A stretch of DNA of 64,000 bases, from assembly GCA_964016885.1 (NCBI GenBank), contig OZ024740.1:356996001-357060000 (forward strand). The letters run 5' to 3'. The notes under the pieces were generated by a model. The model was not told where the DNA came from. It searched no databases and saw nothing but the letters and a program-made list of their open reading frames with translations. Both the position numbers and the translations under genes were made by a program. Positions 2,707 through 61,986 of the stretch are shown piece after piece (within the stretch, counting starts at the first letter, position 1; the number at the start of each line of letters is the position of its first letter). This DNA comes from Eledone cirrhosa (lineage: Eukaryota).

Positions 2707-2716
2707 ATTTCTATAT

Positions 2717-2775
<59 letters not shown>

Positions 2776-13249: not shown

Positions 13250-13845
13250 GGTGGCTGCCAACTCGTTTTCGAGTACGGCCACTACTTTATATCCATGTAG
13301 GAGAACCCCTACCGATGCGCTGAACGAGTGTGACTTTTTAGTCCAGCCAGTGACTTGAAAACTCTGGTACAAACACTACACTTGTGACAATTACTGACAC
13401 ATAGTGCTGGGCCCATGGTACCATGTGACGACAAGTGCAGAGAGATCTCCAGATATAAAGCAATGCCTGTGCCGTGAAGCTTTTATAGTGAGCAAAGGCA
13501 CTGCACAAAGCCAGTCCCACTCTCTTAACCAAGATGATATTTACCAAAAAGAAGAACAAGTCAACATCATTGGATACCATCAGGGTTGCAGGTGTTATAT
13601 CAGAGTTTTCCTTCTCCTAGAATTCTGCCTTGACAAAGGCTAAGGGGTCATCTCTCCCGGTGATTTTGGATGGCCATTGACTCTTAAGAGCTCCTTTGCC
13701 CTTTGACAGGTTTTGTTTTTAGTCCTGCAGGATGTCCAATGTCATCCTCCTCACCAAGAAACCTTGGTGGGTTTGCCAGTTTAGTCGCCAACGACCCGAC
13801 CATGGGACAGGTTGTACTGGGATACATGTTACCAGTAGCACCAAC
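13250..13845 (-). mobile_element. ~600-bp RTE-derived non-autonomous retroposon, copy 1
   Basis: repeated six times in the window; 3' part encodes an RTE C2H2 remnant (CSVCTRVFKSL.GLKSHTRSAH); ACTCGAAAACGAGT stem-loop; (ATGT)n tail. Confidence 0.85.
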
Positions 13846-13891
13846 ATACATACATACATACATACATACATACATACATACATACATACAT

Positions 13892-14477
13892 ACACTTTTG
13901 CAATCCAAGAACAGGAAATCATCTCGAAATACCTGATTCACAAAAGAGATAGGGATGCAGGAAAAACACTTAGATGTGAGAAGTACAGACTCTGCAGAAT
14001 TAACATCGAAGATGTCACCCATGTCATAAGCAGCTGTCCAAAGATGTCATCGCAGTACTATCTACCTATGAGGCATGATGTACTGGCCAAAACACTGTAC
14101 AATGCAATCCGTAGAAGCTACAGCAATGTGGAAGACATACATATACATAATATGAAAGAGTACTGGTGGAATGTTCCAGTAAAAACCCCAATAAAGTGCA
14201 AGCATAACAGACCAAATATAATGATATGGGAGAGGGAAAAGAAGGCATGCACAGTAGTGGAAGTTAGCTGTCCAACAGATGCCAATATAATATCAAAGAT
14301 TAGCGAAAAGGAGAATATTTATGCAGAACTAATGAGAAATCTGCAGAAACTCCACCCTGACTATACTTTCAGATTTATGCCTGTGATTATTGGAGCACTG
14401 GGATATGTTAGTAACAGCTTCAATACAAATCTCGAGAAGCTGGGCTTCACAGAAACACAAAGAACACAACTAGTTAG
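13892..14477 (+). mobile_element. R4/Dong family B 3' fragment, left part (interrupted by Gypsy)
   Basis: FAIQEQEI, RLC..H..SC, RHD, RPNI..W...VEVSCP; continues at 19453; similar to 26885-27800. Confidence 0.9.
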
Positions 14478-14758
14478 TGCTGTATTCCTCTCGGTACTCG
14501 CAGAGAAAACACAACGAGTTATATCAAATAATTTGTGTATTGTACGAAACAACCAAAACGCCCCTCCTCACGGTAGCAGAATAACATAAAGTAAGTGCCA
14601 GCAGCAGTCTGTGACCGAGTTTTGAATACCAACGCTGACTGACTGCCCAGGTCACGTGATTCATATGCAAATGTGTGAGCACGTGTAAATTGAATAAAAC
14701 GAATTTAACAGTCCATACAACAATGAGGTTGTGAGTTCGATTCCCAGTCCATACAACA
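14478..14758 (-). repeat. 3' LTR
   Basis: direct repeat of 19172-19452 with about 9 mismatches counted by eye. Confidence 0.95.
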
Positions 14759-17700
14759 CCTCCCCACCGAAATTGATGCGACAAAAGAAGCATCAAAGCA
14801 AAGTCTCTCTGGGGGTTTACGAGTTCTCTTGGACCGTCTTCGATTGTCTGGTCCATACTCTGGAACGGGCAATAAGGTCTTGGGTCTGGTCTGTCTTGGA
14901 GTTAGTGGCACGATTTCCGAGATCTCCATCGGGTGATCTGTTGCAAATTCAAAAACAGTGTCTACTGCATCAACAGGTTCATTGTCTTCCTCAGTAGTGT
15001 ACCGCGGTTGCGGCTGTTCCCAGTGTCGTCTCCACACCGGGCCATGAGGTATGACCTTAACGTTGAAGCAGCGAGTACCCAATGACTTCTTAATGATTGC
15101 TGGTACCCATCGGGGATCTTTGTCTTGGCGAGGTCCGTAGTACAGTGCATACACAGGATCTCCAGCCTTGTACTGCCTGGTAACCTTAGCGACACCTGCC
15201 GAGTCCGGAGTCATCTGAGACTTATATGCTTCCTTAGACTGCTTGCCTTGAGCGATGTGTGCTGGCGAGGGCAGCAGAGAATCAATCCTTGTCCGTATCT
15301 GCCGGTGATTCAAAAATTCACTCGGAGAGAATCCACTGGATGTCGGTGTTCTCCGGTACTGCATCAAGAACTCTTGAAGTGCTCGCTTCGGCGGAAGAGA
15401 AGTCTTCCTCAGAGCTTGTTTGAAGGTCTGCACCAAACGTTCCGCTGCTCCGTTGGTAGCTGGGTGGTAAGGTGCCCCTGTCAGGTGCGTGATCCCACGT
15501 TCTTTGCACCAGCTCTGGAACTCCTCAGAAATAAAAGTTGGTGTGTTATCGGTGACTAGCGTGTGAGGAAATCCGAAGTGCGCAAAACTTCTTCAAGCAG
15601 ATCTAAAGTGGCTCTGGAGGACGTGGATGACGTAGGATGAATGCATGGATACTTGGAATAAGCATCCGTGATCACCAACCAATTACTACCCATGAAATTT
15701 ATTGCGTGGTCCAGGTGTAAGCGGCTCCACGGCTTTTCAGGTAACATCCATGGGTGAACTGGAGACTTGGATGGCTGGTTTTGATGTTCACCACACGAAT
15801 CACATTGTCGACTGGTTTTCTCTATAGCAGCATCGATACCAGGCCAATAAACAGCACTTCTTGCCAATTGTTTCATGCGCTCCATGCCAAAGTGTCCGAG
15901 ATGCAGAAGATTGAGGATCTTTGGCTGAAGGTTATGTGGAATCACAACTCTCGATCCATGGATAAGGCATCCGTGGCAGATACTGAGTGAATCCGATAAC
16001 TTCCGGAACTTATTGACTTCGTCATTGATCTCAGTATTCTTTGGTGGCCAGCCTTCACGGACGTAGCGTATCACTGTAGATATCACTGGATCTTTCCCTG
16101 ACTCTTGACGGAGGACGTTAGCATCGATAGGTTGGACTTGAAGACTGAGAGCTTTGATGGCGCACACCATGTCCATGTCTTCACCATTTTCCTTCCTGTC
16201 AAAGTCGATGTCATTACCAAATGGCAAGCGACTGAGGGCATCTGCATTGCCATGATCCGCTGTTTTCCGATATTCGATGGTGTAGTCAAACTGGTTCAGC
16301 CACAGGGCCCACCTTGCTAGTCGGTTAGCAGCGAGAAGTGGCGTCCCTTTCCTCGGACTGAACAGTGATGTCAGTGGCTTGTGGTCAGTTACAAGTATAA
16401 GCTGATGTCCGTACAGATACTGATAGAACTTCTGCAAGCCAAATATGATGGCCAGGGCTTCCTTTTGAATTTGGCCGTAGTTACGATGTGCAGAAGTAAG
16501 AGTTTTGGACACATTGGATATTGGGCGCTCGCTTCCATCAGCATAACGATGAAACAGGACTGCTCCAATACCAACGTTTGACGCGTCGCAAGCCAGTCCC
16601 AAAGTTTTGTTTGGATCGAAGTGTATCAGAACTCGATCCGATGAAAGCACATTTTTCAACTGATCGAAAGCTGACTGTTCTTCATCTCCCCACTTCCAAG
16701 TAGTCGTTTTTTTCGTAAGGCAATAGAGTGGCTCTGCCATGCTGGCCAGGTTTGGGATAAACTTTCCATAGAACTGAACTGACCCCAGGAAAGACTTCAA
16801 GCTTGAGACGTTCGTTGGAGGTGGCATCTTTAAAACTGCTTCGACCTTGGATCCCTTCGCGATCCCTTCAGCCGACAAGGTGTATCCAAGGTATTCCACA
16901 CTGGGTAGTGCAAACTGGCACTTGTCACGGCGACATCTGAGTCCTTTGTCGCACAGACGTGTGAGCAAACACTTTAGGTTGTTCAGGTGATCGTTTGCAT
17001 CTTTCCCACTGACGAGCATGTCGTCCTGGAAGACGGCCACACCAGGTAGATCTTGAGTCAGGTTTTCCATGATCTCCTGAAAGTAACCAGGTGCTGACTT
17101 GATTCTGAAAGGGAGTCATTCCTGCAGGAGCACCCCACGGTGAGTGCTGAGTGCAAGCCTGCGTTGACTTTCTGGAGCCAGCTTGATCTGATTATAAGCA
17201 TCAGCAAGATCAATCTTTGTGTATCCGAATCCACCTCCGAGCTTCTGCATCAGTTCCTCTGGGAGTGGCATTGGATAACGATGATCTGCAAGTTGGTCAT
17301 TAATTCCCACACAGTAGTCACCACAAATCCGTAGTTTGGGCTTCAGGTTGCCTGAAGTGTGTGCTTTACAAATCGGTACCACTGGCGTTCCGTATTCGTT
17401 GAACTGTACTGGCTTCCAGATTCCTTTGGCGATGCCTTCTTCGTAACCTTTGGCCAGGTCATCACGAAGAGCAAACGGGACCGAGCGTGCCTTGTGAAAG
17501 ACCGGTGTCGCGTCTGACTTGAACTTCACTTCCAGTTCGAAGTCATTAAGACATCCCAATTCTTGCTTGAAGAGATCTGGGAATTCATCACACATGTTGT
17601 GACAATCTCGTTGCGTGGAAATATAGGGCGCATTTGAGGTCTCTGGATGCATCACTTCTGCACCCTCACTCTTGGCCTGGCTGTCTATGCTTTTCAATCC

Positions 17701-19020
17701 TAGAGCATTGTCCACGGAAATTCCCAGAGTCTGGATAGCGTTTCGTCCCAGCAAATTAAGATCAGGGATCTTGGTGACGATGTAGGGTATTGAATTCCGT
17801 TTACCGGTCGTTGGATCCTTGGTTTGGCCCATGAAAGTTCCCAGAACGGGCAGGTCGTGCTTGCTGGCAGATTCAAACCGATGTTTGACATCTTGCAGCT
17901 TCGGTTTTCCTAATTGTTTCCAAACTGACAAGGAAACAAAATTGCCTGTAGTAGCTGTGTCCAATTCCATTGTGAAAAGTCTGTTCTGGATTGTTATTGG
18001 CACATTCAAACTATGAGTATCGTGGGGAACTTCACCAAGGATCGCCTTGACTAGCTCAGCTTTCGTGATTCTTTTCACGTAATTCTGTGAGCGATGATTA
18101 CGTTGCTGATGTTGTTTCTTTCTACACACCGCTTGCAAATGTCCCTTTTTGTCACAAAAATGACATTTGGCTTCTTTGAAGGGGCAGTCTGTCGCTTTGT
18201 GTGCCTTTCCACATCGGTAGTCTGTGGAATAAGACTGCTGATGGTTCTTTCGAGGACCCTTGTTCTTGTTCTGCTGGACCTTGTAGACTTGCTTGGTTTT
18301 GGAACCGTAAACAGTTTCCTTGGCAACCTTTGCTGCGTCTTCGGTCCCGATGGCAACTTGGACAGCACGGGCGAAATCTAGTTCTGTATCCTTGATCTTG
18401 AAAATAGCCTTCAACACAGCTTCATTATTGACAGAACATATAAATCTCTGTCTTAGAGCTTCATCTTGTGGATTTGTGATCAAAGGAAAATCACAGGTAG
18501 CTGCATCCTAACGTATACGTGCTGCCAGCTCCTGGAGAGTTTCGCCTGGTTTCCGTTGCATGTCACTCCAGAACTTGAAACGTTCTCTCACAATGAAAGG
18601 TTTTGGGTCGAACTGTTCTTTCATGAAGTCAACAATTTCGTCCATTGTCAACTTGTTGATATCCTTAGGCGGATTTTGTTGAGCAGCCAGATTTGGAAGT
18701 TGTTTGTAGATAGCAGCCGTCTGATTAGTCAGGAACACTTGTGCCATGCGTTGCTCGGGTACAGCGTTAGCAGCCACAAACGTGCAGAATCTTGACCAGT
18801 AATCAGGCCATAGTTCTGTTGTTGAATCAAAAGCAGCAAATGGTGGGATGAATGCTGTTGGTGTCGAAGCAACTGGCGACGCCAATAAACTCTGTTGTTC
18901 AGAATCTCGAGCACCAAACAGTTTCATCAGAGTTTCCATATCTTTCTTGTGTTGTTGCATTTGTTGTTCCATCTGTTCTCTAAACAACTTCATTAGCTCC
19001 GCTGTTTGTTGTTCCGCCAT
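14759..19020 (-). pseudogene. gag-pol polyprotein with two in-frame stops and a frameshift
   Basis: CCHC CHFCDKKGHLQAVC, protease ELDTAT, RT KIDLADAY and FQDD, RNase H CDAS/TDHKPL, integrase HHCC and HLDH..DAYSK; stops at 18508 and 17116, frameshift near 15580. Confidence 0.93.
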
Positions 19021-19042
19021 GTTTTTATGATAAACAATTTCC

Positions 19043-19152
19043 CGGCAATGTAGGTAAATCCTATCGGCAATGTAGGTAAATCCTATCGGCAACGTAGGTA
19101 AATCCTATCGGCAATGTAGGTAAATCCTATCGGCAATGTAGGTAAATCCTAT
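19043..19152. repeat. 22-bp tandem repeat x5 in the Gypsy leader
   Basis: CGGCAATGTAGGTAAATCCTAT units. Confidence 0.95.
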
Positions 19153-19171
19153 CGTCGACGCCAATAAACTC

Positions 19172-19452
19172 TGTTGTATTCCTCTCGGTACTCGCAGAGA
19201 AAACACAACGAGTTATATCAAATAATTTGTGTATTGTACGAAACAACCAAAACGCCACTCCTCACAGTAGCAGAATAACATAAAGTTAGTACCAGCAGCA
19301 ATCTGTGACCGAGTTGTTAATACCAACGCTGACTGACTGCCCAGGTCACGTGATTCATATGCAAATGTGTGAGCACGTGTAAATTGAATAAAACGAATTT
19401 AACAGTCCATACAACAATGAGGTTGTGAGTTCGATTACCAGTCCATACAACA
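19172..19452 (-). repeat. 5' LTR
   Basis: TGTTGTA...TACAACA, followed on the minus strand by the PBS. Confidence 0.95.
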
Positions 19453-19735
19453 GTTAGGAAATTACAAGTACAATCCATTAATGGAACATCTAATATCTGC
19501 ATATATACACATGTACAGATACAAAACATATGCACATGCACACACACAACTCAAAACATACACCTCCTCACATTCAATAACATCCATACCTGCACACACA
19601 TGCATGCAGACATGCATACATATCTACCTAGTTGATGTTGTGTAAATTCCAATGAGGGAGTCTTGTAACTATGCTAGAAACCGACTCTCTCTCTCTCTAT
19701 TGGCAAAAAATTGTGAAATTATAAAACCAGAAGAA
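19453..19735 (+). mobile_element. R4/Dong family B 3' end and UTR, right part
   Basis: resumes GTTAGGAAATTACAAGTAC; matches 27499-27805; ends in (ATAC)n. Confidence 0.88.
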
Positions 19736-19813
19736 CATACATACATACATGCATACATGCATACATACATACATACATACATACATACATACATACATAC
19801 ATACATACATACA

Positions 19814-19844
<31 letters not shown>

Positions 19845-19942
19845 CATACATACATACATACGTACGTACATACGCACGTACATACATACGCACGTACACA
19901 CATACATACATATATACTTACGTACATACATACATACATACA

Positions 19943-22900
19943 ATGGCGACCGTTGTGGTCAGTGTCCGATAATTGGACGTGTGTAATTACGGCTTACATG
20001 AAGGCAACATACCATATATTGGAAAAAGTTGAGCTACATTACGCGGTAAGATTACATACAATAATTCTACATAAGTGTTTGAACTGTAAGTGTGTTGTAA
20101 AACACCTATTTATATGAACGATACATACACTTATGATATATGAACGATACATACACTTTAACATATAAATGCAACGTTGTTATATTACATTTATAAAGAA
20201 ATATAAAAGTAACGTTTTCGATTCAGAAACAAAAATATAAGTGTTTGAACTGTGAATGTTGTGAATATGTTGTAGAACACCTATTTATATGAATGATACA
20301 TAAACTTTAACATATAAATACAGCGTTGTTATATTATATTACATTCGTAAAGGAATATACTAAGTAACGGTTCTTTTTGTTCTCGATTCAAACGATTCAA
20401 GAACAACGTTTAAAACACAGTTGTAGAATTAAAAACTAACTGAAAAGAAATATTACCCAAGCTGTGAATAACTTTAAATTTGATTCTGACAGAACTTTGT
20501 CGTAACTTTTAAAGAAGATCATCGACTATTTAAAAAAAATAAATACAAAATATTAGTGAATAGACGAACTCATCATGGCAAAAAGTACAAGTCTCCTTCG
20601 ACCAAATCGCAATTACAACCGTTGTATACAGTGGAGCTACGAGCTTAACAAAGAATTATATGAAGCATACAAACAATCTGAACCCCAAAAGTTCGGTTTT
20701 ATGCAAAGGCTAAAAACTTTATGGAACTCCAAACACCCAGAATTAGACTTTTCTCCAAAGCATCTAAATGAACAGGCAAAACGTATCATTAGATGTAAAT
20801 TGATACATCTAACGGAATCGAGTGATACTACAAATACAGCCCTTGTAGACAACCACCCCACCTCCACTGACAGACAAAGAGAATGGCCGGCTAAATCTAA
20901 CAGTGAACAGCTCACCAACAATTTTGCTGAAATCCATCCCACTTCCACTGAAGAACAGCGAGAAAGGTCAGCTGACTCTAGTAGTAATTGTCACCACATC
21001 AACAACGAGGCTGCAATTCATGACTCTACTGAACAAACAGAGCACCAAAAACTTGTGGGCACCCTACAAGTGATATGGAACGATATGTTTCAAGAGATAC
21101 ACAGCCTTAATGTGAGTGACAGACCATACAACACTAGAGTCAGTAAAGAACCCACTAAATTGGAATTGGAAGCGGTGAACGAAATAGCTGGCAATTATCT
21201 GAAGGCTATACGATCTAAAGGTGTAGAAACGACATTTGAAACGCTCAATGTTTTGTTATATGTTTCAGCTGTCACATTGCTATCATATAACACACATCTA
21301 AAACCACGCAATCAAGATACAAACAGAAAGCCTGAACCAGCGTGGATGCGAAATTTAAAAACCAAAATTTTGTCCCTGAGACGAAGTATCTCACACATCG
21401 CAGTCGTTATGAAATGCAACATAGAGAGAAACTTCACACGACACCAAGAAGACCTAAAGAAAAAGTTAGAGAGACGATTTGGAGATACCAAATTTAAAAC
21501 TTTGAACTCCAAATTACACCAGTTGAAACAACAACTCACAGCTACAACAGAAAGACTAAAATATAAGTCAACAGCCCATAAACGACAAGTGCTAAATAGA
21601 TTGTTTGCCAGAGATCCTAAATCAGTTTATCGCAGCTTCGGTGGCAAAAGCTCAATCCCTGTAAACGACACCCCTTCAAAAGAACAGGTTGAGAACTACT
21701 GGAGATCTGTATGGGAAACGGATGACGGATTCAACAGACAAGCTAATTGGCTAAAACAACTGGAACAGGACTACTGCCAACATGTCCAGACAAAACAATA
21801 TGACATAGATGGGTCAATACTGGAAACAGCTCTACAGAAAATGTCGAATAGGAAATCGCCAGGCCCAGACCTCATTACAGGATACTGGTTGAAGAATTTC
21901 ACTTTCTATCGGCAAGATCTCATACGGCTGTTTACAGAAACCATTAAGGGCACACAAGAACTGCCCAGATGGTTATCAACTGCCACTACTCTCCTCATTC
22001 CCAAAAATAGCCAAACCACCCTTGCTAAAAATTACCGCCCAATTGCCTGCCAAAACATCATGTATAAATTATATACTGGGTGCCTTAACCTGTTCTTACA
22101 GGATCACTGTGCTACCAACAACATCATAACACCTGAGCAAGCTGGTGGAAAGAGGGAGGTGTGGGGTTGCATAGATCACCTACTAACTAACAAAATGATT
22201 CAGGTAAAAACAACAAAGAATCGCAGAAACATGACTGTCGTGTGGCTGGACTATCAAAAAGCATTTGATAGTGTACCTCATGGGTGGATTATTAAGGCTT
22301 TACAGTTAGCTAAAGTCCCACAACCATTAGTAGCTGCTGTTGAACGCCTGACCAAGAACTGGTACACCAATTTGATCCTTAGAGGTGAGAAGGAGCAGGT
22401 TAAGACTGATAGGATACATTACCAGAAGGGCATCTTTCAGGGTGATAGCTTGTCAGTACTACTCTTCGTTCTCTCACTGAATCCACTATCTTACCTACTC
22501 AGGAAACAAGGTGGACAAAGAAGTGGGCCCAGAAGTATCTCCCATCTTTTCTTTGTTGATGACCTGAAGTTGTATGGGCCAAATATCAATGACATCAAGA
22601 AACAATTGGACCTCATTACACAATTTTCAACCGACATCAAAATGAAATTTGGTGAGTCCAAGTGTGCATATTTGGCAGTAAAACGTGGAAGAGCTGTGCC
22701 CTCTTCTAGAAATCTAGATATGAACGGCCTGACAATACAACCTCTGCAGTCAGGTGACAACTACAGATATCTTGGACAGGATGAGAATGTCAGATATGAT
22801 GGACCCATAAATAAGGAGAGAACCAGAACTGAATACCTCAGAAGAGTAAAAAAAATATGGTCATCAGAACTGTCAGCATACAACAAATACATTGCCCACA

Positions 22901-24164
22901 ATACCTATGCTGTGCCAATTATAACGCCAACATTTGGCCTACTGAACTGGTCATTGCAAGAACTAAGTGAGATGGATGTTAGAACTCGTAAACTTCTCAG
23001 TGTTACTGGGAACTTTAACATCAATGGTGATGTGGATAGGCTATACTTCTCACGCAAGGAAGGTGGCCGGGGTCTAAAATCAATATTAACAACATATGAG
23101 ACCCGGATAGTAACACTGAAGCAACACCTTCAACAGAGGAAAAAGGTTGGCGACCATCTTGCTCAGGTTTATGAGCATGAAAAAAGAAATATCATTAGAA
23201 TAGCGACTGATCTGGAGGAGAGATATGGAATAAAGCCTGATATAAATCTCTCACCCAGAGAAATCGGAAGATCCTATTCAATGTTCAAACAAGAAAAAAA
23301 AATTGACCAATTTACAGAGAAAGTTGTGCATGGATACTTGAGGCGTAAAACACAGACCATAGAGGGGATAAACCACTCAAAAAGCCTGGCATGGAGTTCC
23401 GACAAGTTTATGACATCACACCTTGAGGGATATCTCTATGCAATACAGGAACAAGAACTCCCTACCAAATATCTGCTGCACAAAAGAGGAGGGCCAGCAG
23501 CTGACAATAAATGTAGGCTATGTAAAACAAAGATCGAGGATGTAAGCCACATTGTTGCCAGCTGCGAAAGAATGTCATCTCGCTACTACCTCCCCATGAG
23601 ACACGATGGGATAGCTAGAACTATCTGGAACGCACTTCGGAAAACAAAATTAACAACAAACGAAGAAGAATATATTGAGACAGATGGCACTAAGGAATAC
23701 TGGTGGAACCTGAAAATAAAAACTGCCACCAAATTAAAGCACAACCGGCCTGATATTGTAGTTTGGGACCACACATTGAAAACGTGTTCTGTTGTGGAGA
23801 TCAGCTGCCCACTTGATGTAAACGTTGTCAGAAAAATACAGGAGAAGGAGGACATCTACGGACCATTGATGAGGAGCTTACAAATCCAGTATCCAAGATA
23901 CACCTTTAGCTTCATACCCATCATTATTGGTGCTACGGGTTATATACCAACCCGCTTGGACCAAAGTATGACCGAACTTGGATTTGCGGACAAAAAGCGC
24001 AGCTCCCTAATTCATAGTCTACAAATGGCTGCGATAGCTGGCACCTTCAAAATATGCAAAACATTCTTGCGATTCAAGGGATGACAATTTCTTTTCTTTT
24101 ACAACCTTGCCACCAGGAAGGTGGCCGGTCAAAAAAATATACTCGAAATTAAGAGAAAGAGAAA
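19943..24164 (+). mobile_element. apparently full-length R4/Dong-clade non-LTR retrotransposon (family A) within (ATAC)n
   Basis: ~630-bp 5' UTR, single ORF, ~80-bp 3' UTR, (ATAC)n on both sides. Confidence 0.9.
20575..24084 (+). CDS. reverse transcriptase + CCHC + restriction-like endonuclease (R4/Dong ORF), 1169 aa, uninterrupted
   Basis: PGPD, YRPI, EQAG, DYQKAFDSVPH, GIFQGDSLS, FVDD, YLG, GGRGL; CRLC..H..SC; RHD..RPDIVV..VEISCP..K..Y. Confidence 0.95.
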   Translation: MAKSTSLLRPNRNYNRCIQWSYELNKELYEAYKQSEPQKFGFMQRLKTLWNSKHPELDFSPKHLNEQAKRIIRCKLIHLTESSDTTNTALVDNHPTSTDRQREWPAKSNSEQLTNNFAEIHPTSTEEQRERSADSSSNCHHINNEAAIHDSTEQTEHQKLVGTLQVIWNDMFQEIHSLNVSDRPYNTRVSKEPTKLELEAVNEIAGNYLKAIRSKGVETTFETLNVLLYVSAVTLLSYNTHLKPRNQDTNRKPEPAWMRNLKTKILSLRRSISHIAVVMKCNIERNFTRHQEDLKKKLERRFGDTKFKTLNSKLHQLKQQLTATTERLKYKSTAHKRQVLNRLFARDPKSVYRSFGGKSSIPVNDTPSKEQVENYWRSVWETDDGFNRQANWLKQLEQDYCQHVQTKQYDIDGSILETALQKMSNRKSPGPDLITGYWLKNFTFYRQDLIRLFTETIKGTQELPRWLSTATTLLIPKNSQTTLAKNYRPIACQNIMYKLYTGCLNLFLQDHCATNNIITPEQAGGKREVWGCIDHLLTNKMIQVKTTKNRRNMTVVWLDYQKAFDSVPHGWIIKALQLAKVPQPLVAAVERLTKNWYTNLILRGEKEQVKTDRIHYQKGIFQGDSLSVLLFVLSLNPLSYLLRKQGGQRSGPRSISHLFFVDDLKLYGPNINDIKKQLDLITQFSTDIKMKFGESKCAYLAVKRGRAVPSSRNLDMNGLTIQPLQSGDNYRYLGQDENVRYDGPINKERTRTEYLRRVKKIWSSELSAYNKYIAHNTYAVPIITPTFGLLNWSLQELSEMDVRTRKLLSVTGNFNINGDVDRLYFSRKEGGRGLKSILTTYETRIVTLKQHLQQRKKVGDHLAQVYEHEKRNIIRIATDLEERYGIKPDINLSPREIGRSYSMFKQEKKIDQFTEKVVHGYLRRKTQTIEGINHSKSLAWSSDKFMTSHLEGYLYAIQEQELPTKYLLHKRGGPAADNKCRLCKTKIEDVSHIVASCERMSSRYYLPMRHDGIARTIWNALRKTKLTTNEEEYIETDGTKEYWWNLKIKTATKLKHNRPDIVVWDHTLKTCSVVEISCPLDVNVVRKIQEKEDIYGPLMRSLQIQYPRYTFSFIPIIIGATGYIPTRLDQSMTELGFADKKRSSLIHSLQMAAIAGTFKICKTFLRFKG

Positions 24165-24244
24165 ACATACATACATACATACATACATACATACATACAT
24201 ACATACATACATACATACATACATACATACATACATACATACAT

Positions 24245-24852
24245 GGTGGCTGCCAACTCGTTTTCGAGTACGGCCACCACTTTATATCCATGTAGGAGAA
24301 CCCCAACCGATGCGCTGAACGAGTGTGACTTTTTAGTCCAGCCAGCGACTTGAAAACTCTGGTACAAACACTACACCTGTGACAATTATTGACACATAGT
24401 GCTGGGCCCATGGTACCATGTGACGACAAGGGCAGAGAGATCTCCAGATATAAAGCAATGCCTGTGCCGTGAAGCTTTTATAGTGAGCAAAGGCACTGCA
24501 CAAAGCCAGTCCCACTCTCTTAACCAAGATGATATTTACCAAAAAGAAGAACAAGTCAACATCATTGGATACCATCAGAGTTGCAGATGTTATATCAGAG
24601 TTTTCCTTCTCCTAGAATTCTGCCTTGACAAAGGCTAAGGGGTCATCTCTCCCGGTGATTTTGGATGGCCATTGACTCTTAAGAGCTCCTTTGCCCTTTG
24701 ACAGGTTTTGTTTTTAGTCCTGCAGGATGTCCAAAGTCACCCTCCTCACCAAGAAACCTTGGTGGGGTTGCTAGTTTAGTCGCCAACGACCCGACCATGA
24801 GACAGGTTGTACTGGGATACATGTTACCAGTAGCACCAAGTGGTGACCTGAC
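24245..24852 (-). mobile_element. RTE-derived non-autonomous retroposon, copy 2 (full)
   Basis: near-identical to copy 1; (ATAC)n on both sides. Confidence 0.88.
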
Positions 24853-24938
24853 ATACATACATACATACATACATACATACATACATACATACATACATAC
24901 ATACATACATACATACATACATACATACATACGTACAT

Positions 24939-25268
24939 GGTGGCTGCCAACTCGTTTTCGAGTACGGCCACTACCTTATATCCATGTAGGAGAACCCCTA
25001 CCGATGCGCTGAACGAGTGTGACATTTTAGTCCAGCCAGCGACTTGAAAACTCCGGTACAAACACTACACTTGTGACAATTACTGACACATAGTGCTGGG
25101 CCCATGGTACCATGTGATGACAATTGCGGAGAGATCTCCAGATACAAAGCAATGCCTGTGCCGTGAAGCTTTTATAGTGAGCAAATGCACTGCACAAAGC
25201 CAGTCCCACTCTCTTAACCGAGATGATATTTACCAAAAAGAAGAACAAGTCAACATCATTGGATACCA
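24939..25268 (-). mobile_element. RTE-derived retroposon, copy 3 (3' half)
   Basis: sequence identity; fused directly to the Dong B fragment. Confidence 0.85.
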
Positions 25269-27805
25269 AGAACAGAACAACACCAAAAATACCATCATAT
25301 ATAACTAAAATAGAAAAAAAGATCGCTGACCTACGAAAAACCATAGGATATGTGACAATGTTCCTTACATGGAAACAAACATTTTAAAAAACCTCACTCC
25401 TCACCAACAAAGAGTGAAAAATAAAATAAAGACGATGTTTGGTAACAGTAGAACCAGAACTCTTCAATATAAGCTGATCACCCTCAAACAAGAATTGAGA
25501 GCTGTTAGCGAAAAACGCCGATACCTGAAGAAGGTAGATGAGAGAAAGGTGCTTAATAAAAGATTCAGACGAAAGCAAACATCAGTCTATAGAGAAATGA
25601 AGAACAAAATAATAAGTGTCACTGAGGCCCCATCCCAGAAAGACATAGATTCCTTTTGGAGCAAAATATAGGGTGAAAAGAAGAATTTCAACAAGATGCA
25701 GTGTGGCTAAGAGAAATCCGAAAGAACTATTTCTCCTACACTACAACAAAAACATACGAAATAAGTGAGGGTACCCTTGAGACTGTGATAGGAAAACTCC
25801 AAGATAAGAGAACACCAGGAAGAGACATGATTGTCGGCTACTGGTACAAAAAACTGATATTCCATCGGAGGTATCTTACTGACCTCTACCAACAAGTTCT
25901 TAAGGGAGATACACTTATACGAGAATGGTTGACATTAGCACAAACATTACTGGTCCTCAAGAACAAAGACACCCACTTGACAAAAAAATACCGACCCATT
26001 CATACATGAACCTGATATATAAGATGTATACAGCCTGCCTGAACCTATTCCTCCAAGATCACTGTGAAAATAATAACATCATCACAGATGAACAAGCAGC
26101 TGGAAAGAAATGGGGTTGTGGATGTGCTGAACAACTCCTAATCAATAAAACTGCGATGTCGGAGGTGCGACAACTTAGGAGGAATATGGCTACAGTCTGG
26201 CTGGACTACAGGAAAGCTTTCGATTTGTTCCCCACTCTTGGATGATAGAGGCCCTCCAACTTGCTAAAGTCCCAGACATTATTATCAGAGCCATAGAGAA
26301 GTGTCTTCTTCTTGGGCTACTATCCTAAGGTTAAATAACTCTCTGCGCAAAACAAAACAGTGGCTCACAATGTGTTTGCTGTGCCTGTCCTAACACCAAC
26401 GTTTGGAATACTCAATTGGACGATAGACGAAATCCGAGCAGTTGATGTTGGAACTCGAAAAATACTAAACAACACCAGAAACTTCCACATCAACAGTGAC
26501 ATAGACCGCCTTTACTTCAAACGTAAACAGAGGGGCAGAGGCCTAACATCAGTCCAGACAGAATTTGAATGTTGCATCATATCTCTCCGTCAACATCTAC
26601 GAACCTCAAAGCGTAGGAGCCCGTCTCTCGAGCAAGTCTATCTGCAAAAAACAGATAAGATCATGAGAGTTGAGAAGGAACTCCTCGAGAGATATTCCCT
26701 GTGTGATAATCAAAAACTCACACCCAGGGAAGTCGCTCAACAGTATCGCAGTGAATCCATGGATGAAAAACTGCATGCTTATCAGCAAAATATCATGCAT
26801 GGATATATTGCCAGGAAGCTCCAGATAAGGAAAGTAGTCTATCTTGGACCAACAACCGCTATATTGGCTCCAACTTTGAAGGATACGCTTTTGCAATACA
26901 AGAACAGGAGATTAACACGAAATACCTGATTCACAAAAGAGATAGGGATGCAGGCAAAACACCTAGATGTGATAACAAGTGCAGACTGCAGAACTAACAT
27001 CGAGGATATCTCCCATGTCATCAGCAGCTGTCCAAAGATGTCATCGCCGTACTATCTACCTATGAGGCATGATGTGTAGTGGCCAAAACACTGTACAATG
27101 CAGTTAGTAAAAAAGATAGCCCCGACAATAAACACATTAAAAGCTACAGCAATCTGGAAAACATCAATGTACATAATATGAAAGAGTACTGGTGGAATGT
27201 TCCAGTAAAAACCCCAATAAAATGCAGGCATAACAGACCAGATATTATGATATGGGACAGGGAGAAGAAAGCATGCACAGTAGTGGAAATTAGCTGCCCA
27301 GCAGATGCCAATATAATATCAAAGATTAATGAAAAGGAGAATATTTATGCAGAACTGATGAGAAATCTGCAGATACTCCACCCTGATTACACCTTCAGAT
27401 TTATGCCTGTGATTATTGGGGCACTGGGGTATGTTAGTAACTGCCTCAATACAAATCTTGAGAAGCTAGGCTTCACACGAACAGAAAGAACACAACTAGT
27501 TAGGAAATTACAAGTACAATCCAATAATGGAACAGTAAAAATATGTAAAACATTCGAAAAATGTTGCATCTAATAACTGCATATACACATGTACAGATAC
27601 AAAGCATATACACATGCACACATAAAAATCAAAACATACACATCCACACATACAATAACATCCATATCTACACATGCATGCATGCATAATCTACCTAGTT
27701 GATGTTGTGTAAATTCCAATGAGAGAGTCTTGTGTCTATGTTAGAAACAGACTCTCTCTCTCACTATTGGGAAAAAATTTGTGAAATTATAAAACCAAAA
27801 GAACA
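25269..27805 (+). pseudogene. degenerate 5'-truncated R4/Dong family B element
   Basis: fragmented PGRD, YRPI, EQAA, DYRKAFD, GRGL, RHD, RPDI..VEISCP; RT core deleted near 26330; ends in ATAC repeats. Confidence 0.9.
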
Positions 27806-28007
27806 TACATACATAGTCGTATATTGGAGAGAGTTATTTAACGTATCTGTACCAAAACACAGCCACTTAATCAAATGTGTGTACTGTGAACTATTGGTTG
27901 TAGTATCATTACTGCAATCTCACAGATTTATTGAGTGGGTGAGGCATTGACCGGAGACCGTTGAGTTATCTCAACGATTTTCATAAACCTTGTGTGTGTG
28001 TGTGTAT

Positions 28008-29270: not shown

Positions 29271-32200
29271 GTATTATATATAGACGTATATATACATTTA
29301 TAATTCGGTCAGCCGTAACAAAAATTAGCTGAAGTTATGTTTCATCAAACTATTAGACGTTTGTGTTCTTGTCCGGTCATTTCGCTTGAAGGTACCGTCT
29401 ATAAAATAAAGTACCGATCAATAACTGGAGTCGGTTTAATTGATTTATCTCTTCTTCTAACCTGCTGGTCTTGTGCCAAAATTAGAAACCATTATCATCA
29501 ATGAAATATAATATACACGTGGAGAAATTTAACTGGATGTATTGTTTTCATCTTTTAAAATTGACCTTGTGTCTATTGAAAAACAATACAACTTCCAGTT
29601 ACAAAACATAAATATCGTCAACTTTTGTTTCTGTTTAGCTATAAAGATGGTGGTGGATAGAAGTGGTCACCTAAACGTCTTTCTGCTGAAAGTTTAAAAT
29701 ATATAGCAGTCGACTTGGCCTTCCCTCCTCTCGGGGGATCAATAAAATAAATACCAGACAAGTATTAAGATAGATCTACGTATTCACGTATAACCTCCAT
29801 CAAAAAGCATTCTATTCTAATTATCTAATTATAGAAATGTGTCTTCCTTGATTTCTTTAAAAACGATCCAATTAAAATACGTTTATCCTCTCTTGTGGCT
29901 TTTTTGCATTCTATTGTCAAGAAATGAGATCACACTTCTTTTTTTATTTAACATTTTGATATAGCATTTAGTCGACAGAAAACTCACGTGCATAAATGGT
30001 TTTTTGATATGATCAAACAATTTTGTTCGTATTTTTAACAATAACTTTCAGTAATGAGATTTTACAATTTTAGCAGCATTTTGGTCTAAATATGATGTAC
30101 GTGGAAATAGTCATGTCTTCATAGATATTCCAATATCATTGTTATATTTATAGTGAGCGGCCTAAAACAAACGGTCAGGGTTTAATTTTATTCGAAATCT
30201 TCTTACATTGTGGGCAACTGTTCACAGTTGTCTACAACGTAAGAGCTATACACTCAACAGTGGCCAATCTGCTTTTGTCATTGATCATTATCCATGGCTA
30301 CGTCAACAGATTCGTTAGTTCTAATAGTGTATTTGGTTAGATCTTCATTAATTCATGAAATATGTTTTCGACAAAGCTCTTAATCATTTGAATTCACGAG
30401 CCGATTTCGAATTTACTTCATTATATCGTCAATGTAGGTCGTTGGGAGACATATAAACGTTGCACCATCCTACACACATCGAAATGTGAAGCTATATATG
30501 TTCACTCGAAAGGAAACCAAGCAACATGTTGCAGAAAAAGGAATAGAACAGATATTTATGCTAAAAGATAAAACTTATAAAACTGACAAATGCTAGAAAT
30601 ACTATAAAAATCACGAAAACAACATTGAATCCTTAGAAACATTTTTCTAAATTTTTGAATTACTTTTCATTGTTGACTGTTTTCTGCTTCTACTAACAGG
30701 ATTTATTTGTTTAATTTTATTAAGAACTTTCCAAAATGCGCAATATTTATTTTCGTAGAAAAAGTTATTTTGTGTGGTGTTTTCTATAAAAATCTTTTAT
30801 TTTATTACATCAGTAAAATACTAGCGTATTTCAGAAGCTCAACTTTTTCTATATAAATGTAGAATCTATAATTATCTACTTCAAGCATTATTTAAAAATA
30901 CCAGTTTTTATTTGAACAGATATTATTTTCCCTATTTCAAAGAATACAACCTTTTCCTCTGTTGAAACAATACACCCAGAGTAATTACTCTTGGTAGAGG
31001 TTTTATCCTTTTAAGCCATTGACTGGTCATAAATAGATAGTATTAGAGGTGAATCAAGTGAAATTATTCAAACGAAACCTTATCACCCCTCTAAAGTATT
31101 CAACTGATCTAGCATGCACCGGGAATCAAGGTAAGAATTTGCTGACTGGTCTCTTTTAATGCTTACATTTTAAAATGCTGCGTTCCCAGATAGCTATAAA
31201 CATTCAGATATAAAGAGGTAACAAAAAGAGATTCTGGTATGTTCATGTCATTTTCAAGAGAACAAGTCATGTTAGTGAAGGCAAGTATATGAAGCTGAAC
31301 ATTTAAGTGACTCAAGGATTGCATTTGTTGGAAGCTTAATTAATATTCTCTACAGCGCTCACCAGAATATATGATTACCAGATATTATATATCGTAGTCG
31401 GTAATTCAATCATATCCAAATTGTCAACGCTGATTTAATCTGATATCTTTAATGAATACTGTACGTTACATGTGGATCATATAAATCAAATGTCTGCTCA
31501 TGCTTTAGAATTTTAATTAGTTTTCCCAAATTCAATGGATATATAGTCTTATCGTGCATATAAGTTTCCGTATAGATTCTATTTTACTTCATTAGTAATA
31601 ATTGTGTTCTGAAACATAATGACTTCAGCAACTATGAATATTCTGATGACATCAACTTGAACTGTATTTCTTTTGACAAGGAACAGATATAATTTTTGTA
31701 ACAGAAAGATATAGTCGATGGATCGATTTGCAATTTATTGTACTAAGGAGCTACTCCTCTACGGTCTACGATTCTCATTTCCCGTATAATCATACATAAA
31801 ATCAATGCTTCATCTCCAAAAGGAAAAGAAATATAGAATCAATACTTTTATTATTTCTTTATCAATGATATTAATATTATTAAAAGTAAAATGTAAAATA
31901 ATTGTTTCTACTTTTGGCACAAGGCCAGCAATTACCCAGTTCATTACTGGTACTTTATTTTAAATAATTGTTTCTACTATTGGCACAAGGCCAGCAATGA
32001 GCCAGTTCATTACTGGTACATTACTTTATTTTAAATAATGATAAATATTTACATCATCCTGCTCTGGTGCGGTAAATACAATCAATAGATTGACATTGTA
32101 CGTTCAGAGATATCAATAGCACATTAATATCCCCATTGATTTCAATGGATAGAAAACTATCTTTAACGGAATAAGTGAAATAAATACGTAAGAAAATCAG

Positions 32201-52599: not shown

Positions 52600-53025
52600 A
52601 TTCATTGATATTGTTGTTTAGGATGCAGATTAAAAGCATACTCTGTTGTATAAACCAGCTTCCCACTCCTTGTCGGTGTAGTAAGAAAGATACAAAAGCA
52701 GGAAAACTACGGTCATTTGATGAGGAATTTGCAGGTCCAGTACCCAAAATACAGTTGCATAAGTACTATTTTTGAAGCCACAAGATATACATCATCCTGC
52801 CAGGATCAAAGTAAGACTAAACTTGGATTCTTAGAGAAAGAGCGCAGTTACTTAATTCATAAGCTACATATGGTCACGATATCTGGAACCTTCAAAAGCT
52901 GTAAAACATACTTACAGTTCAAAGGATGAACCACTACACAACGGGCGACATAAATTTCCTTTTCTTTACAACCTTGATATCGGGAAAGTGACCGATTAAA
53001 AATAAACTTAAACTTAAGAAAGACA
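52600..53025 (+). mobile_element. old R4/Dong family A-like 3' fragment
   Basis: LMRNLQVQYPKY...GTFKSCKTYLQFKG*; related 3' UTR; followed by CATA repeats. Confidence 0.8.
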
Positions 53026-60433: not shown

Positions 60434-61986
60434 AAATAAGGAGAGAACCAGAACTGAATACCTCAGAAGAGTAAAGAAAATATGGTCATCAGAACTGTCA
60501 ACGTACAACAAATGCATTGCCCACAATACTTATGCTGTGCCAATTCTAACGCCAACATTTGGCCTGCTGAACTGGTCATTGCAAGAACTAAGTGAGATGG
60601 ATGTTAGAACTCGCAAACTTCTCAGTGTTACTGGGAACTTTAACATCAATGGTGATGTGGATAGGCTATACTTCTCACGCAAGGAAGGTGGCCGGGGTCT
60701 AAAATCAATATTAACAACATATGAGACCCGGATAGTAACACTGAAGCAATACCTTCAACAGAGGGAAAAGGTTGGCAACCATCTTGCCCAGGTTTATGAG
60801 CATGAAAAAAATAATATCATTAGAATAGCGACTGATCTGGAGGAGAGATATGGAATAAAGCCTGATATAAATCTCTCACCCAGAGAAATCGGAACTCCCA
60901 AGGGATTAGTTTGCCAAGCGTAAACAAGTCAGAAAGGTGGATATATCCTCTTACCTATTTTCTGTCAGGCGTAAACACCTCTGACCTGTGTTTGGCCTCT
61001 CCCAAGGGGTTAGTCTCTTGAGCGTAAACAAGTTACCACGGCTTGTCCCAGAGGCGGGAAAGCTCAGATTCGGTTTCGAATCTTCGCCACCGTTATATAT
61101 TCAATGTTCAAACAAGATAAAAAAATTGACCAATTTACAGAAAAAGTTGTGCATGGATACTTGAGACGTAAAACACAGACCATAGAGGGGATAAACCACT
61201 CAAATAGCCTGGCATGGAGTTCCGACAAGTTTATGACATCACACCTTGAGGGATATCTCTATGCAATACAGGAACAAGAACTCCCTACCAAATATCTGCT
61301 GCACAAAAGAGGAGGGCCAGCAACTGACAATAAATGTAGGCTATGTAAAACAAAGATCGAGGATGTAAGCCACATTGTTGCCAGCTGCGAAAGAATGTCA
61401 TCTCGCTACTACCTCCCCATGAGACACGATGGGATAGCTAGAACCATCTGGAACGCACTTCGGAAAACAAAATTAACAACAAACGAGGAAGAATATATTG
61501 AGACAGATGGCACTAAGGAATACTGGTGGAACCTGAAAATAAAAACTGCCACCAAATTAAAGCACAACCGGCCTGATATTGTTGTTTGGGACCACACATT
61601 GAAAACGTGTTCTGTTGTGGAGATCAGCTGCCCACTTGATGTAAACGTTGTCAGAAAAATACAGGAGAAGGAGGACATCTACGGACCATTGATGAGGAGT
61701 TTACAAATCCAGTATCCAAGATACACCTTTAGCTTCATACCCATCATTATTGGAGCTACGGGTTATATACCAACCCGCTTGGACCAAAGTATGACTGAAC
61801 TTGGATTTGCAGACAAAAAGCGCAGCTCCCTAATTCCTAGTCTTTAAATGGCTGCGATAGCTGGCACCTTCAAAATTTGCAAAACATTCTTGCAATTCAA
61901 GGGATGACAATTTCTTTTCTTTTACAACCTTGCCACCAGGAAGGTGGCCGGTCAAAAAAAATATACTCGAAATTAAGAGAAAGAGA
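60434..61986 (+). mobile_element. 5'-truncated R4/Dong family A copy
   Basis: highly similar to 22808-24164; 203-bp insertion at 60895-61097; frameshift near 61840; (ATAC)n on both sides. Confidence 0.93.

What the first reader, a model, noticed from the sequence alone, without database searches (positions are those of the whole stretch)
19943..24164. Intact R4/Dong retrotransposon with apparent (ATAC)n target specificity
Seen: an uninterrupted 1169-aa RT-CCHC-RLE ORF in an otherwise decayed landscape. All five Dong-type insertions, from two divergent families (13892-19735, 19943-24164, 25269-27805, 52600-53025, 60434-61986), are on the + strand and end in ATAC repeats. Three also start directly after (ATAC)n, including two 5'-truncated copies. 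Known: R4-clade RLE elements are sequence-specific (R4 on 28S rDNA, Dong on TAA repeats). Inference: a young, possibly active lineage with strand-specific tetranucleotide-microsatellite targeting that I do not recognise as described.
Basis: partly seen in the sequence, partly recalled or inferred. Interest (0 to 1): 0.75.

Follow-up and report, generated by a model that had tools for sequence, protein, structure and literature searches.

The report
Young LINE homing to ACAT repeats
This is an intact copy of a very young, abundant jumping gene (a LINE with a restriction-like endonuclease) that, like nearly all sampled copies, lies inside an ACAT microsatellite in one orientation, so it likely homes to that repeat, a target I did not find described for this group.

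Summary
Window 19943-24164 (+) is a 4,222-bp non-LTR retrotransposon with one intact 1,169-aa ORF: a predicted N-terminal three-helix domain, RT, CCHC and a PD..E restriction-like endonuclease.

I sampled 55 further genomic copies, 22 full-length and 33 5'-truncated, with median identity 99.7%.
- 54 have (ACAT)n directly at the 3' end.
- 49 have it directly at the 5' break, and 5 more within 1-9 bases. Only one lacks it.
- Such arrays cover about 0.2-1% of sampled DNA, so (ACAT)n is a true target and not only a tail.
- 14 of the 22 fetched full-length copies keep the ORF.

An older lineage in the same clade (family B) ends in the same repeat in 20 of 20 copies. Relatives in metagenome contigs are flanked by (CTTA)n. 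A separate, well-supported clade is flanked by the classical Dong target (TAA)n.

Many target arrays are tails or linkers of an abundant 0.6-kb antisense retroposon that is itself flanked by (ATGT)n.

Octopus papers already list recently active Dong-R4 LINEs, but none I could search names a target. Repbase and Dfam could not be checked.

Verdict: a real, young, (ACAT)n-specific Dong-like LINE, which is a new variant of a known kind. Moderate interest.

The parts
19735..19942 (+). Upstream (ACAT)n tract, about 52 units and imperfect. It is both the tail of the family-B copy that ends at 19735 and the 5' target flank of the intact element.
   Evidence: TRF row; sequence
19943..24164 (+). Intact family-A element, 4222 bp. 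It starts ATGGCGACC and ends GAGAAAGAGAAA.
   Evidence: 22 genomic copies align over 1-4222
19943..20574 (+). 5' UTR, 632 nt, with two about 95-nt direct repeats (20127-20217 and 20277-20372, 81% alike). No ribozyme was detected and the first 150 nt are not unusually structured.
20575..24084 (+). Single ORF, 1169 aa plus stop
20638..20796 (+). Predicted N-terminal three-helix domain (ORF residues 22-74), conserved among relatives and likely Myb/SANT-like
   Evidence: AF2 pLDDT >90 with helices 22-35, 42-53, 61-74; conservation; Atlas lead Myb_Rap1 0.83; fold searches uninformative
21997..22752 (+). Reverse transcriptase domain
   Evidence: Pfam RVT_1 E 1.2e-24; R2 structures E 4e-29 over residues 378-786
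23512..23565 (+). CCHC zinc knuckle (CRLC..H....C)
   Evidence: conserved in 27 relatives; lies within the zf-RVT match
23740..23868 (+). Restriction-like endonuclease core (HNRPDIV ... K.C..vE ... PlD.N ... eK...Y.pL)
   Evidence: motif conservation; no Pfam model matched, so assigned by motif only
24085..24164 (+). 3' UTR, 80 nt, with a predicted GC hairpin GCCACC-AGGAA-GGUGGC
   Evidence: fold z = -4.2, 0 of 200 shuffles as stable
24165..24244 (+). Downstream (ACAT)20. It is the 3' flank or tail of the element and at the same time the (ATGT)n tail of the antisense 0.6-kb retroposon.
24245..24850 (-). 0.6-kb retroposon-like repeat, full length. Further copies lie at 13250-13843 and 24939-25268, and a related 3' end lies at 62078.
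13890..14477 (+). Family-B Dong-like copy, 5'-truncated and preceded by (ACAT)12.8. Its 3' part is 19447-19735.
14478..19446 (-). Nested LTR retrotransposon. Its pol frames carry in-frame stops; LTRs at 14501-14758 and 19195-19452 are 96.9% alike.
25269..27805 (+). Decayed family-B copy with no ACAT at its 5' break and an 11-nt ATAC tail
52606..53025 (+). 3' fragment of a third Dong-like lineage (59% aa identity) with a short ATAC tail
60434..61986 (+). Older 5'-truncated family-A copy (95-98% aa identity). It lies between (ACAT)10.8 and (ATAC)22.5, and in turn between a 0.6-kb repeat 5' end (left) and a related 3' end (right).

Best explanation
Window 19943-24164 is an intact copy of a very young, high-copy, single-ORF non-LTR retrotransposon of the restriction-like-endonuclease (R4/Dong-like) type that lies inside a sense-strand (ACAT)n microsatellite, as 54 of 55 other sampled copies do; it likely integrates by nicking the (ATGT)n strand of such arrays and priming reverse transcription on an (ACAU)n RNA tail.

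Shown:
- the domain content;
- the near-identity of the copies;
- intact ORFs in most full-length copies;
- (ACAT)n on both sides in one orientation, for full-length and for independently truncated copies alike;
- the same repeat at the ends of a second, older lineage of the same clade.

Inferred:
- The endonuclease, probably guided by the N-terminal three-helix (Myb/SANT-like) domain, recognises the repeat.
- The fixed 3' junction (GAGAAA|ACAT) reflects a repeat tail on the RNA that anneals to the nicked strand.
- The 5' end is joined to the upstream repeats by annealing or microhomology. Truncated copies show 0-9 nt of microhomology. All full-length copies share the phase TACA|ATGGCG.

Many target arrays are themselves tails or linkers of an abundant antisense 0.6-kb retroposon or of earlier Dong-like copies. 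These elements therefore stack in each other's repeat tails.
For: Architecture:
- One 1169-aa ORF.
- RVT_1 only, with no AP-endonuclease family.
- CCHC plus PD..E..K motifs conserved in 27 relatives.
- The best solved relatives are R2 proteins, aligned over the RT only.

Youth and copy number:
- 635 and 883 first-look candidates for the two ends.
- All 40 + 40 scored candidates are 100% identical.
- 55 fetched copies are 97.8-100% identical, median 99.73%.
- The 33 truncated copies break at 32 different positions.
- 14 of 22 full-length copies have an intact ORF.

Target:
- The 3' flank starts with an ACAT unit in 54 of 55 copies.
- The 5' flank abuts ACAT in 49 of 55 and lies 1-9 odd bases away in 5. 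One copy has none.
- Background array cover is 0.2-1%.
- Flanks beyond the arrays differ between loci.
- Arrays without an insertion exist: window 24851-24938 and 59730-59798, and kb-long arrays in L156.

Second lineage:
- Family B has 20 of 20 3' ends in the repeat and 10 of 20 5' breaks in ACAT-rich DNA.

Phylogeny:
- Families A and B, with the (CTTA)n-flanked L056 and L059, form a clade with SH-aLRT 100.
- The 13 (TAA)n-labelled rows lie on the other side of a branch with support 100.

Landing pads:
- The 0.6-kb repeat adjoins the target array in 25 of 55 loci.
- That repeat has a constant 3' end followed by ATGT- or AT-type repeats in all 20 of its own copies sampled.

Literature (passages read):
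Against: - No biochemical or polymorphism evidence: no empty allele of any one locus was seen, and no RNA run is on record.
- The sample is not random. The search scored only the best 40 candidates for each end, so the youngest copies are over-represented. For the older family B only half of the 5' breaks could be placed in the repeat.
- Two of the five window copies (25269 and 52606) do not start at ACAT.
- Tract lengths are asymmetric: the 5' median is 72 nt and the 3' median 28 nt (p = 5.5e-5). Simple random insertion into an array does not predict this.
- No named R4, Dong or Rex6 sequence was in the tree.
- The Myb-like fold of the N-terminus was not confirmed by fold search or by Pfam.
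- A study of O. bimaculoides found few non-reference insertions for its Dong element (PMC9115989, passages).
Confidence: 0.85

Rival explanations
1. Tail only, no endonuclease specificity. (ACAT)n is just the element's 3' tail. The 5' repeats arise because new copies are primed wherever their RNA tail can anneal (earlier copies' tails, other LINE tails), or because the RT slips or switches onto a tail at the end of synthesis. The protein itself would then cut without sequence preference.
For: - The 3' junction is fixed, and the 3' tracts are short (median 28 nt) against 72 nt upstream.
- Many upstream tracts are tails of other elements.
- Two window copies lack ACAT at the 5' break.
Against: - 54 of 55 5' breaks lie in or next to the repeat, including copies whose upstream tract abuts unique DNA (L016, L021, L050, L055).
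- Annealing-driven choice would still be homing to the repeat.
- RLE relatives are described as mostly target-specific (PMC4640811, passages).
- Relatives with other repeats also carry the same repeat on both sides: L056 with (CTTA)n, and L081, L085, L092, L095 with (TAA)n.
Confidence: 0.1
2. The element belongs to an RLE clade other than R4/Dong (an unnamed sister group, or HERO or NeSL-like), so 'Dong' is a misnomer although the behaviour is the same.
For: - No named R4, Dong or Rex6 sequence was available for the tree.
- The element's clade is separated from the (TAA)n-flanked clade by a branch with support 100, at about 30% identity.
Against: - The architecture matches the published description of R4/Dong: single ORF, no N-terminal zinc fingers seen, a conserved N-terminal helical domain, RT, CCHC and RLE (PMC7998251, passages).
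- The nearest outgroup rows are flanked by (TAA)n, and include a Pediculus protein from a species whose element is used as an R4/Dong representative in that paper.
- Octopus repeat annotations list recently active Dong-R4 insertions whose coverage divided by count gives about 4.2 kb each (PMC13282606, Table 1 passage: 4,732,901 bp / 1129 insertions).
Confidence: 0.15
3. Passive association. Copies insert at random, and the repeats grow at their ends afterwards, or copies survive only in repeat-rich, low-recombination regions.
For: Microsatellites are abundant in this window. Passive accumulation has been proposed for Drosophila Waldo near CA repeats (PMC3812793, passage).
Against: - Copies are about 99.7% identical, so there has been little time for repeats to grow.
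- The repeat starts at the exact junction base, in one orientation, on both sides.
- Background array cover is 1% or less.
Confidence: 0.02

Closest known systems
Dong (Bombyx mori) and Dong-like elements of the R4 clade (DongAg, DongBg, Darwinula Dong1/2)
   Same: Single ORF with RT, CCHC and a restriction-like endonuclease, and a conserved N-terminal helical (Myb/SANT-like) region. Insertion is orientation-specific into a microsatellite that then flanks the element on both sides. The element here is related at about 30% identity to (TAA)n-flanked elements (PMC7998251 and PMC3812793, passages).
   Different: The target is the tetranucleotide (ACAT)n, not (TAA)n. The element sits in a separate, well-supported clade whose other flanked members carry (CTTA)n.
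Waldo (WaldoAg1/2, WaldoFs1; R1 clade)
   Same: Homes to ACAY-type microsatellites (PMC3812793, passage).
   Different: Waldo is an AP-endonuclease LINE of an unrelated clade. The element here has no AP-endonuclease family match and carries a C-terminal RLE motif. Use of the same repeat would be convergent.
R2 (28S rDNA-specific RLE LINE; solved structures 9nl3, 9dou, 8gh6)
   Same: The best solved relatives (E 4e-29 to 1e-15) over the RT and its N-terminal extension. Same enzyme order (RT, CCHC, RLE) and, by inference, the same target-primed reverse transcription.
   Different: The match is limited to residues 378-850. No N-terminal zinc fingers are seen. The target is a microsatellite, not rDNA. 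No HDV-like ribozyme was found at the 5' end.
Togen (NeSL-related, (TG)n) and microsatellite-specific HERO families
   Same: RLE LINEs that home to microsatellites (PMC4640811, passages).
   Different: Different repeats and clades. Relationship was not tested here.
Octopus Dong-R4 LINEs (O. vulgaris repeat annotation 2026; O. bimaculoides 'Dong' element 2022)
   Same: Probably the same or a sister family. The O. vulgaris annotation lists 5 recently active Dong-R4 families with 1129 insertions covering 4.73 Mb, which I divide to about 4.2 kb each (PMC13282606). The O. bimaculoides library holds a full-length Dong ORF (PMC9115989). The closest named protein to this ORF is from Argonauta hians, at 64% identity.
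   Different: Neither paper mentions a target in the passages found: the words 'target' and 'ACAT' are absent from PMC13282606, and 'target site' is absent from PMC9115989. Sequences could not be compared, and supplements were not read.

Membership tests
R4/Dong clade of RLE non-LTR retrotransposons | Single ORF with RT followed by CCHC and a restriction-like (PD..D/E..K) endonuclease, and no AP endonuclease | tested here: met
   One 1169-aa ORF. RVT_1 is the only enzymatic Pfam match, with zf-RVT weak. The CRLC..H..C and RPD...E...K motifs are conserved in 27 relatives. The RLE is assigned by motif, not by a profile.
R4/Dong clade of RLE non-LTR retrotransposons | Site-specific insertion into rDNA or a microsatellite | tested here: met
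   (ACAT)n lies on both sides in 54 of 55 copies.
R4/Dong clade of RLE non-LTR retrotransposons | N-terminal Myb/SANT-like domain without zinc fingers (PMC7998251) | tested here: inconclusive
   AF2 gives three confident helices at residues 22-74, and the Atlas leads point to Myb families at 0.76-0.83. Foldseek gave only a weak myb row (1wgx, probability 0.51). The VIA list was filled by another part of the model. Pfam found nothing.
R4/Dong clade of RLE non-LTR retrotransposons | RT groups with named R4, Dong and Rex6 references in a phylogeny | not testable with these tools
   No named reference sequences were on hand. The tree shows only that the element is the neighbour of a (TAA)n-flanked clade that includes insect proteins.
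Dong sensu stricto | Target (TAA)n | tested here: not met
   The flanks are (ACAT)n.
Waldo / R1 clade | N-terminal AP endonuclease | tested here: not met
   No AP-endonuclease family in Pfam at E <= 0.1. The C-terminal RLE motif is present.
R2 clade | 28S rDNA target, N-terminal zinc finger(s) plus Myb, and similarity over the whole protein | tested here: not met
   The target is a microsatellite. PDB R2 proteins align over residues 373-850 only. The conserved N-terminal 75 residues show no Cys/His pattern.

The most novel reading that the evidence does not exclude
A whole clade of Dong-like RLE retrotransposons has left the classical (TAA)n target for tetranucleotide microsatellites: (ACAT)n in this cephalopod-like genome and (CTTA)n in relatives. 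One member is transposing now. It lives on the repeat tails of an unrelated, far more abundant retroposon that uses the same microsatellite in the opposite orientation. That makes a self-renewing landing-pad ecosystem, and natural material for finding which residues of the N-terminal Myb-like domain or the endonuclease set microsatellite choice.
Probability: 0.45. Interest if true: 0.6.

Novelty: new variant of a known kind. Interest (0 to 1): 0.5.

Why it matters
Microsatellite homing by RLE LINEs is known, for example Dong with (TAA)n. How the target is read, and how it changes, is not.

This genome offers closely comparable lineages with different repeat targets: (ACAT)n, (CTTA)n and (TAA)n. 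One of them is young, has hundreds of near-identical copies and keeps many intact ORFs. That makes target choice directly testable by in vitro nicking, target-primed reverse transcription and domain swaps.

There is also a practical consequence, which is my inference. Insertions buried in microsatellites are hard to call from short reads. This could explain why a Dong element in O. bimaculoides showed few non-reference insertions (PMC9115989) although Dong-R4 is the largest class of recently active LINE insertions in O. vulgaris (PMC13282606).

Finally, the stacking with an antisense retroposon shows how one element's tail can seed the niche of another.

Tried and rejected
- HDV-like ribozyme at the 5' end: the Rfam scan of 13000-28000 at E <= 1 gave only microRNA-like hits on the repeats themselves. 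The first 150 nt fold no better than shuffles.
- RNA evidence: no RNA holder is listed among 24 runs, so expression stays untested.
- Laying contigs of four runs showed that four coded organisms hold near-identical pieces. Summed depth rises from 5' to 3'. Contigs cannot give copy number, starts or polymorphism, and no contig bridged the flanks. The second read-laying run was not used.
- N-terminal fold: Foldseek against the PDB gave no row at E <= 0.001. VIA wide was filled by the long helices at 252-350. Pfam at E <= 10 on residues 1-80 found nothing. A domain-only model was not made because of the queue.
- First metagenome scan with the single protein: 29 pattern matches, no relative. The second scan, with alignment A1, worked.
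- Parent LINE of the 0.6-kb repeat: the protein search ('longer') found nothing. The long 'open frames' beside copies in the genome turned out to be kb-long (ACAT)n arrays, which are open in all six frames.
- Family-B 5' junctions: break points taken from blastn against two reference copies are unreliable where subfamilies diverge, so 10 of 20 remain unclear.
- Tree with the mixture model did not finish in time. LG+G4 with the quick search was used instead. Two pairs of long branches are flagged as unsafe and play no part in the argument.
- Earlier notes of this scan on this genome: none.
- Literature: searches found no statement of an (ACAT)n target for R4/Dong. Repbase, Dfam and subscription papers (for example Kojima & Fujiwara 2004, cited only) were not searchable. 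No supplements were opened.


Full report
**What is at the coordinates.** The + strand is open from 20560 to 24084. From the ATG at 20575 it encodes 1169 residues. The element runs from 19943 (ATGGCGACC...) to 24164 (...GAGAAAGAGAAA), 4,222 bp. It has a 632-nt 5' UTR and an 80-nt 3' UTR. About 52 imperfect (ACAT) units precede it and 20 perfect ones follow it.

Pfam sees only a reverse transcriptase (RVT_1, residues 480-731, E 1.2e-24) and a sub-threshold zf-RVT match. The closest solved proteins are R2 retrotransposon proteins, aligned over the RT region only (E 4e-29). In an alignment with 26 relatives the C-terminus shows a conserved CRLC..H....C knuckle. After it come RHD, HNRPDIV, K.C..vE, PlD.N and eK...Y.pL, the pattern of a restriction-like endonuclease. 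There is no AP endonuclease and no second ORF.

The first 75 residues are conserved among relatives. AlphaFold2 models them as three confident helices at 22-35, 42-53 and 61-74, followed by a disordered linker at 82-147. A language-model look-up points to Myb families at scores below its reliable range. Foldseek, VIA-align and Pfam did not confirm a Myb fold. [quoted passage not shown]

**The other window copies.** tblastn with the ORF finds five pieces, all on the + strand. There are two corrections.
- '13892-19735' is a truncated copy of a second lineage (family B, 36-54% aa identity). An LTR retrotransposon with minus-strand pol frames and about 97% identical LTRs splits it at 14478-19446.
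- The 52606-53025 piece belongs to a third lineage (59% aa identity).

**Is the repeat a target or only a tail?** I searched the window's own 3.0-Gb genome with both ends of the element.
- The first 300 bases gave 635 first-look candidates. The 40 that were scored hold 41 places, all 100% identical.
- The last 260 bases gave 883 candidates, with 40 scored, all 100% identical and all on contig 1.

I fetched the first 20 of the 5' places. I also fetched 35 of the 40 3' places. The five left out were the window's own and four already in the full-length list.

- 22 loci hold full-length copies. 33 hold copies truncated at 32 different 5' positions.
- Identity to the window copy ranges from 97.8 to 100%, median 99.73%.
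- 14 of the 22 full-length copies keep the 1169-aa ORF.
- In the 3'-end sample, 7 of 40 copies are full-length, counting the window's own.

At the 3' end, 54 of 55 loci continue with an ACAT unit, and the last has a one-base deletion. At the 5' break, 49 of 55 abut (ACAT)n directly. Five more (L027, L029, L035, L041, L043) are separated from an ACAT-rich tract by 1-9 odd bases. One (L022) has none. The DNA beyond the tracts differs from locus to locus, so these are independent insertions.

Arrays of three or more ACAT units cover 1.0% of the window on the + strand and 0.2% on the - strand. They cover 0.41% / 0.17% of 40 kb of distal flanks.

**Junction details.**
- All 22 full-length copies share the junction ...TACA|ATGGCG.
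- Truncated copies join in all four repeat phases, with 0-9 nt of microhomology: 0 nt in 9 copies, 1 in 9, 2 in 4, 3 in 5, 4 in 1, 5 in 2, 7 in 2 and 9 in 1.
- The 3' junction is always GAGAAA|ACAT.
- The 3' UTR folds into a GC hairpin more stable than all 200 shuffles (z = -4.2).
- The 5' end shows no HDV-like ribozyme and no unusual fold.
- One result is unexplained. The ACAT tract is longer on the 5' side than on the 3' side: median 72 against 28 nt, longer in 41 loci against 9, Wilcoxon p = 5.5e-5. This also holds for truncated copies.

**A second lineage and relatives elsewhere.** The 3' end of family B has 2,687 first-look candidates, and the 40 that were scored are 89-94% identical.
- In 20 fetched copies the element always ends ...AAAACCAGAAGAA followed by CATA/ACAT repeats (20 of 20).
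- 10 of the 20 5' break points lie in ACAT-rich DNA. The rest could not be placed reliably.

A profile scan of metagenome contigs returned 80 loci that encode relatives.
- Twenty have (TAA)n-type repeats within 500 nt downstream of the ORF, and several have them at both ends (L073, L081, L085, L092, L095, L103). This is the classical Dong pattern.
- The two closest, L056 (43% identity) and L059 (36%), carry (CTTA)n. L056 has it on both sides in the sense orientation.

In a maximum-likelihood tree (IQ-TREE quick, LG+G4, 52 rows) one clade with SH-aLRT 100 holds family A and the family-B pieces. It also holds the Argonauta hians protein (64% identity to the ORF), further database proteins, and L056 and L059. 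All 13 (TAA)n-labelled rows lie on the other side of a branch with support 100. The labels cluster more than in any of 200 shuffles.

The root is not known, and no named R4, Dong or Rex6 sequence was available. The tree therefore shows neighbourhood to (TAA)n elements, not formal membership.

**Where the arrays come from.** A 606-bp repeat lies on the minus strand next to the arrays, at window 13250-13843, 24245-24850 and 24939-25268, with a related end at 62078. It adjoins the target array in 25 of the 55 family-A loci. Its 3' end follows the downstream tract in 12, and its body precedes the upstream tract in 18.

I sampled 20 copies of this repeat and read them in its own sense.
- All 20 have a constant 3' end (...CAGCCACC) followed by ATGT- or AT-type repeats.
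- 6 start at position 1 and 14 are 5'-truncated at varied positions.
- The 44 bases upstream are again ATGT/AT-type repeats.

It therefore behaves as a very abundant retroposon (50,263 first-look candidates) that uses the same microsatellite in the opposite orientation. No Rfam family, protein relative or parent LINE was found for it.

The window shows the same architecture empty and filled. A bare (ACAT)22 linker lies between two such repeats at 24851-24938. A Dong-like copy lies inside such a linker at 60392-62077.

**Mechanism.** By analogy with R2 and Dong (established knowledge of RLE LINEs), I infer four steps.
- The protein binds the repeat, probably through the N-terminal helical domain.
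- The endonuclease nicks the (ATGT)n strand.
- The freed 3' end anneals to an (ACAU)n tail on the RNA and primes reverse transcription.
- The cDNA end is joined to the upstream repeats by annealing or microhomology.

The flank statistics and junction patterns are observed. Every enzymatic step is inferred.

**Known or new?** From passages read in the cited papers:
- (ACAY)n is the target of Waldo, an AP-endonuclease LINE (PMC3812793).
- Other RLE lineages target (TG)n and other microsatellites (PMC4640811).
- Octopus papers list Dong-R4 among recently active LINEs: 5 families and 1129 insertions covering 4.73 Mb in O. vulgaris, which I divide to about 4.2 kb each (PMC13282606). There is also a full-length Dong element in O. 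bimaculoides, for which short-read calling found few new insertions (PMC9115989). No target is mentioned in the passages found.

Eight full-text searches turned up no R4/Dong element with an ACAT-type target. Repbase, Dfam, supplements and subscription journals were not searched.

Earlier AI notes of this scan describe (TAA)n-homing Dong-like copies stacked in other LINE or SINE tails in other genomes. They are leads only and match the landing-pad pattern seen here.

**Verdict.** This is a real, young and probably active (ACAT)n-specific Dong-like LINE. It is a new variant of a known kind, with a neat interplay with an antisense retroposon. Interest is moderate (0.5).

Noticed in passing
window 13250-13843, 24245-24850, 24939-25268 (minus strand); related 3' end at 62078-62120: An abundant 606-bp retroposon-like repeat with 50,263 first-look candidates in the genome. 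It has a constant 3' end and an (ATGT)n tail. It is often 5'-truncated and is itself flanked by the repeat on both sides, in the orientation opposite to the Dong-like elements. No Rfam or protein match was found and its parent LINE is unknown.
   Followed up: partly
L156 753-2617 and 2926-5094: Kilobase-long (ACAT)n-type arrays. They are open in all six reading frames, which makes ORF-based tools report spurious long open frames.
   Followed up: partly
window 14478-19446 (minus strand): An LTR retrotransposon nested in a family-B Dong-like copy. Its gag-pol frames (protease/RT/integrase-like) are interrupted by in-frame stops. The LTRs at 14501-14758 and 19195-19452 are 96.9% alike.
   Followed up: partly
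L056 1-100 and 4822-4869; L059 4651-4694: The closest metagenome relatives (43% and 36% identity) are flanked by (CTTA)n in the sense orientation. This is another tetranucleotide target in the same clade.
   Followed up: partly
L071 3092-3133, L074 4022-4114, L090 3719-3758, L098 3189-3222: Within the mainly (TAA)n-flanked clade, some relatives carry other repeats after the ORF: sense-strand (TTA)n, (AG)n or (CT)n. Target switching may be frequent in this group.
   Followed up: no
55 family-A loci (L001-L055): The ACAT tract is longer upstream than downstream of the element: median 72 against 28 nt, p = 5.5e-5. This is unexplained.
   Followed up: partly
L009 320-400: A full-length copy is preceded by a fragment of the family's own 5' UTR (positions 111-187). 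That fragment ends at an internal GATACATACA motif, so a very short ATAC run inside another copy may have served as the target. The region is rearranged and this was not resolved.
   Followed up: no
window 42498-43248: A tandem array of 3.8 copies of a 193-bp SINE-like unit, 90% alike. A related 66-bp duplication lies at 31896-32028.
   Followed up: no
window 19943-24164 in runs X1, X4, X5, X7: Contigs from runs labelled as four different coded organisms hold pieces of the element with few differences, for example 17 in 1079 nt. The family is therefore shared by close relatives or by differently labelled samples.
   Followed up: partly
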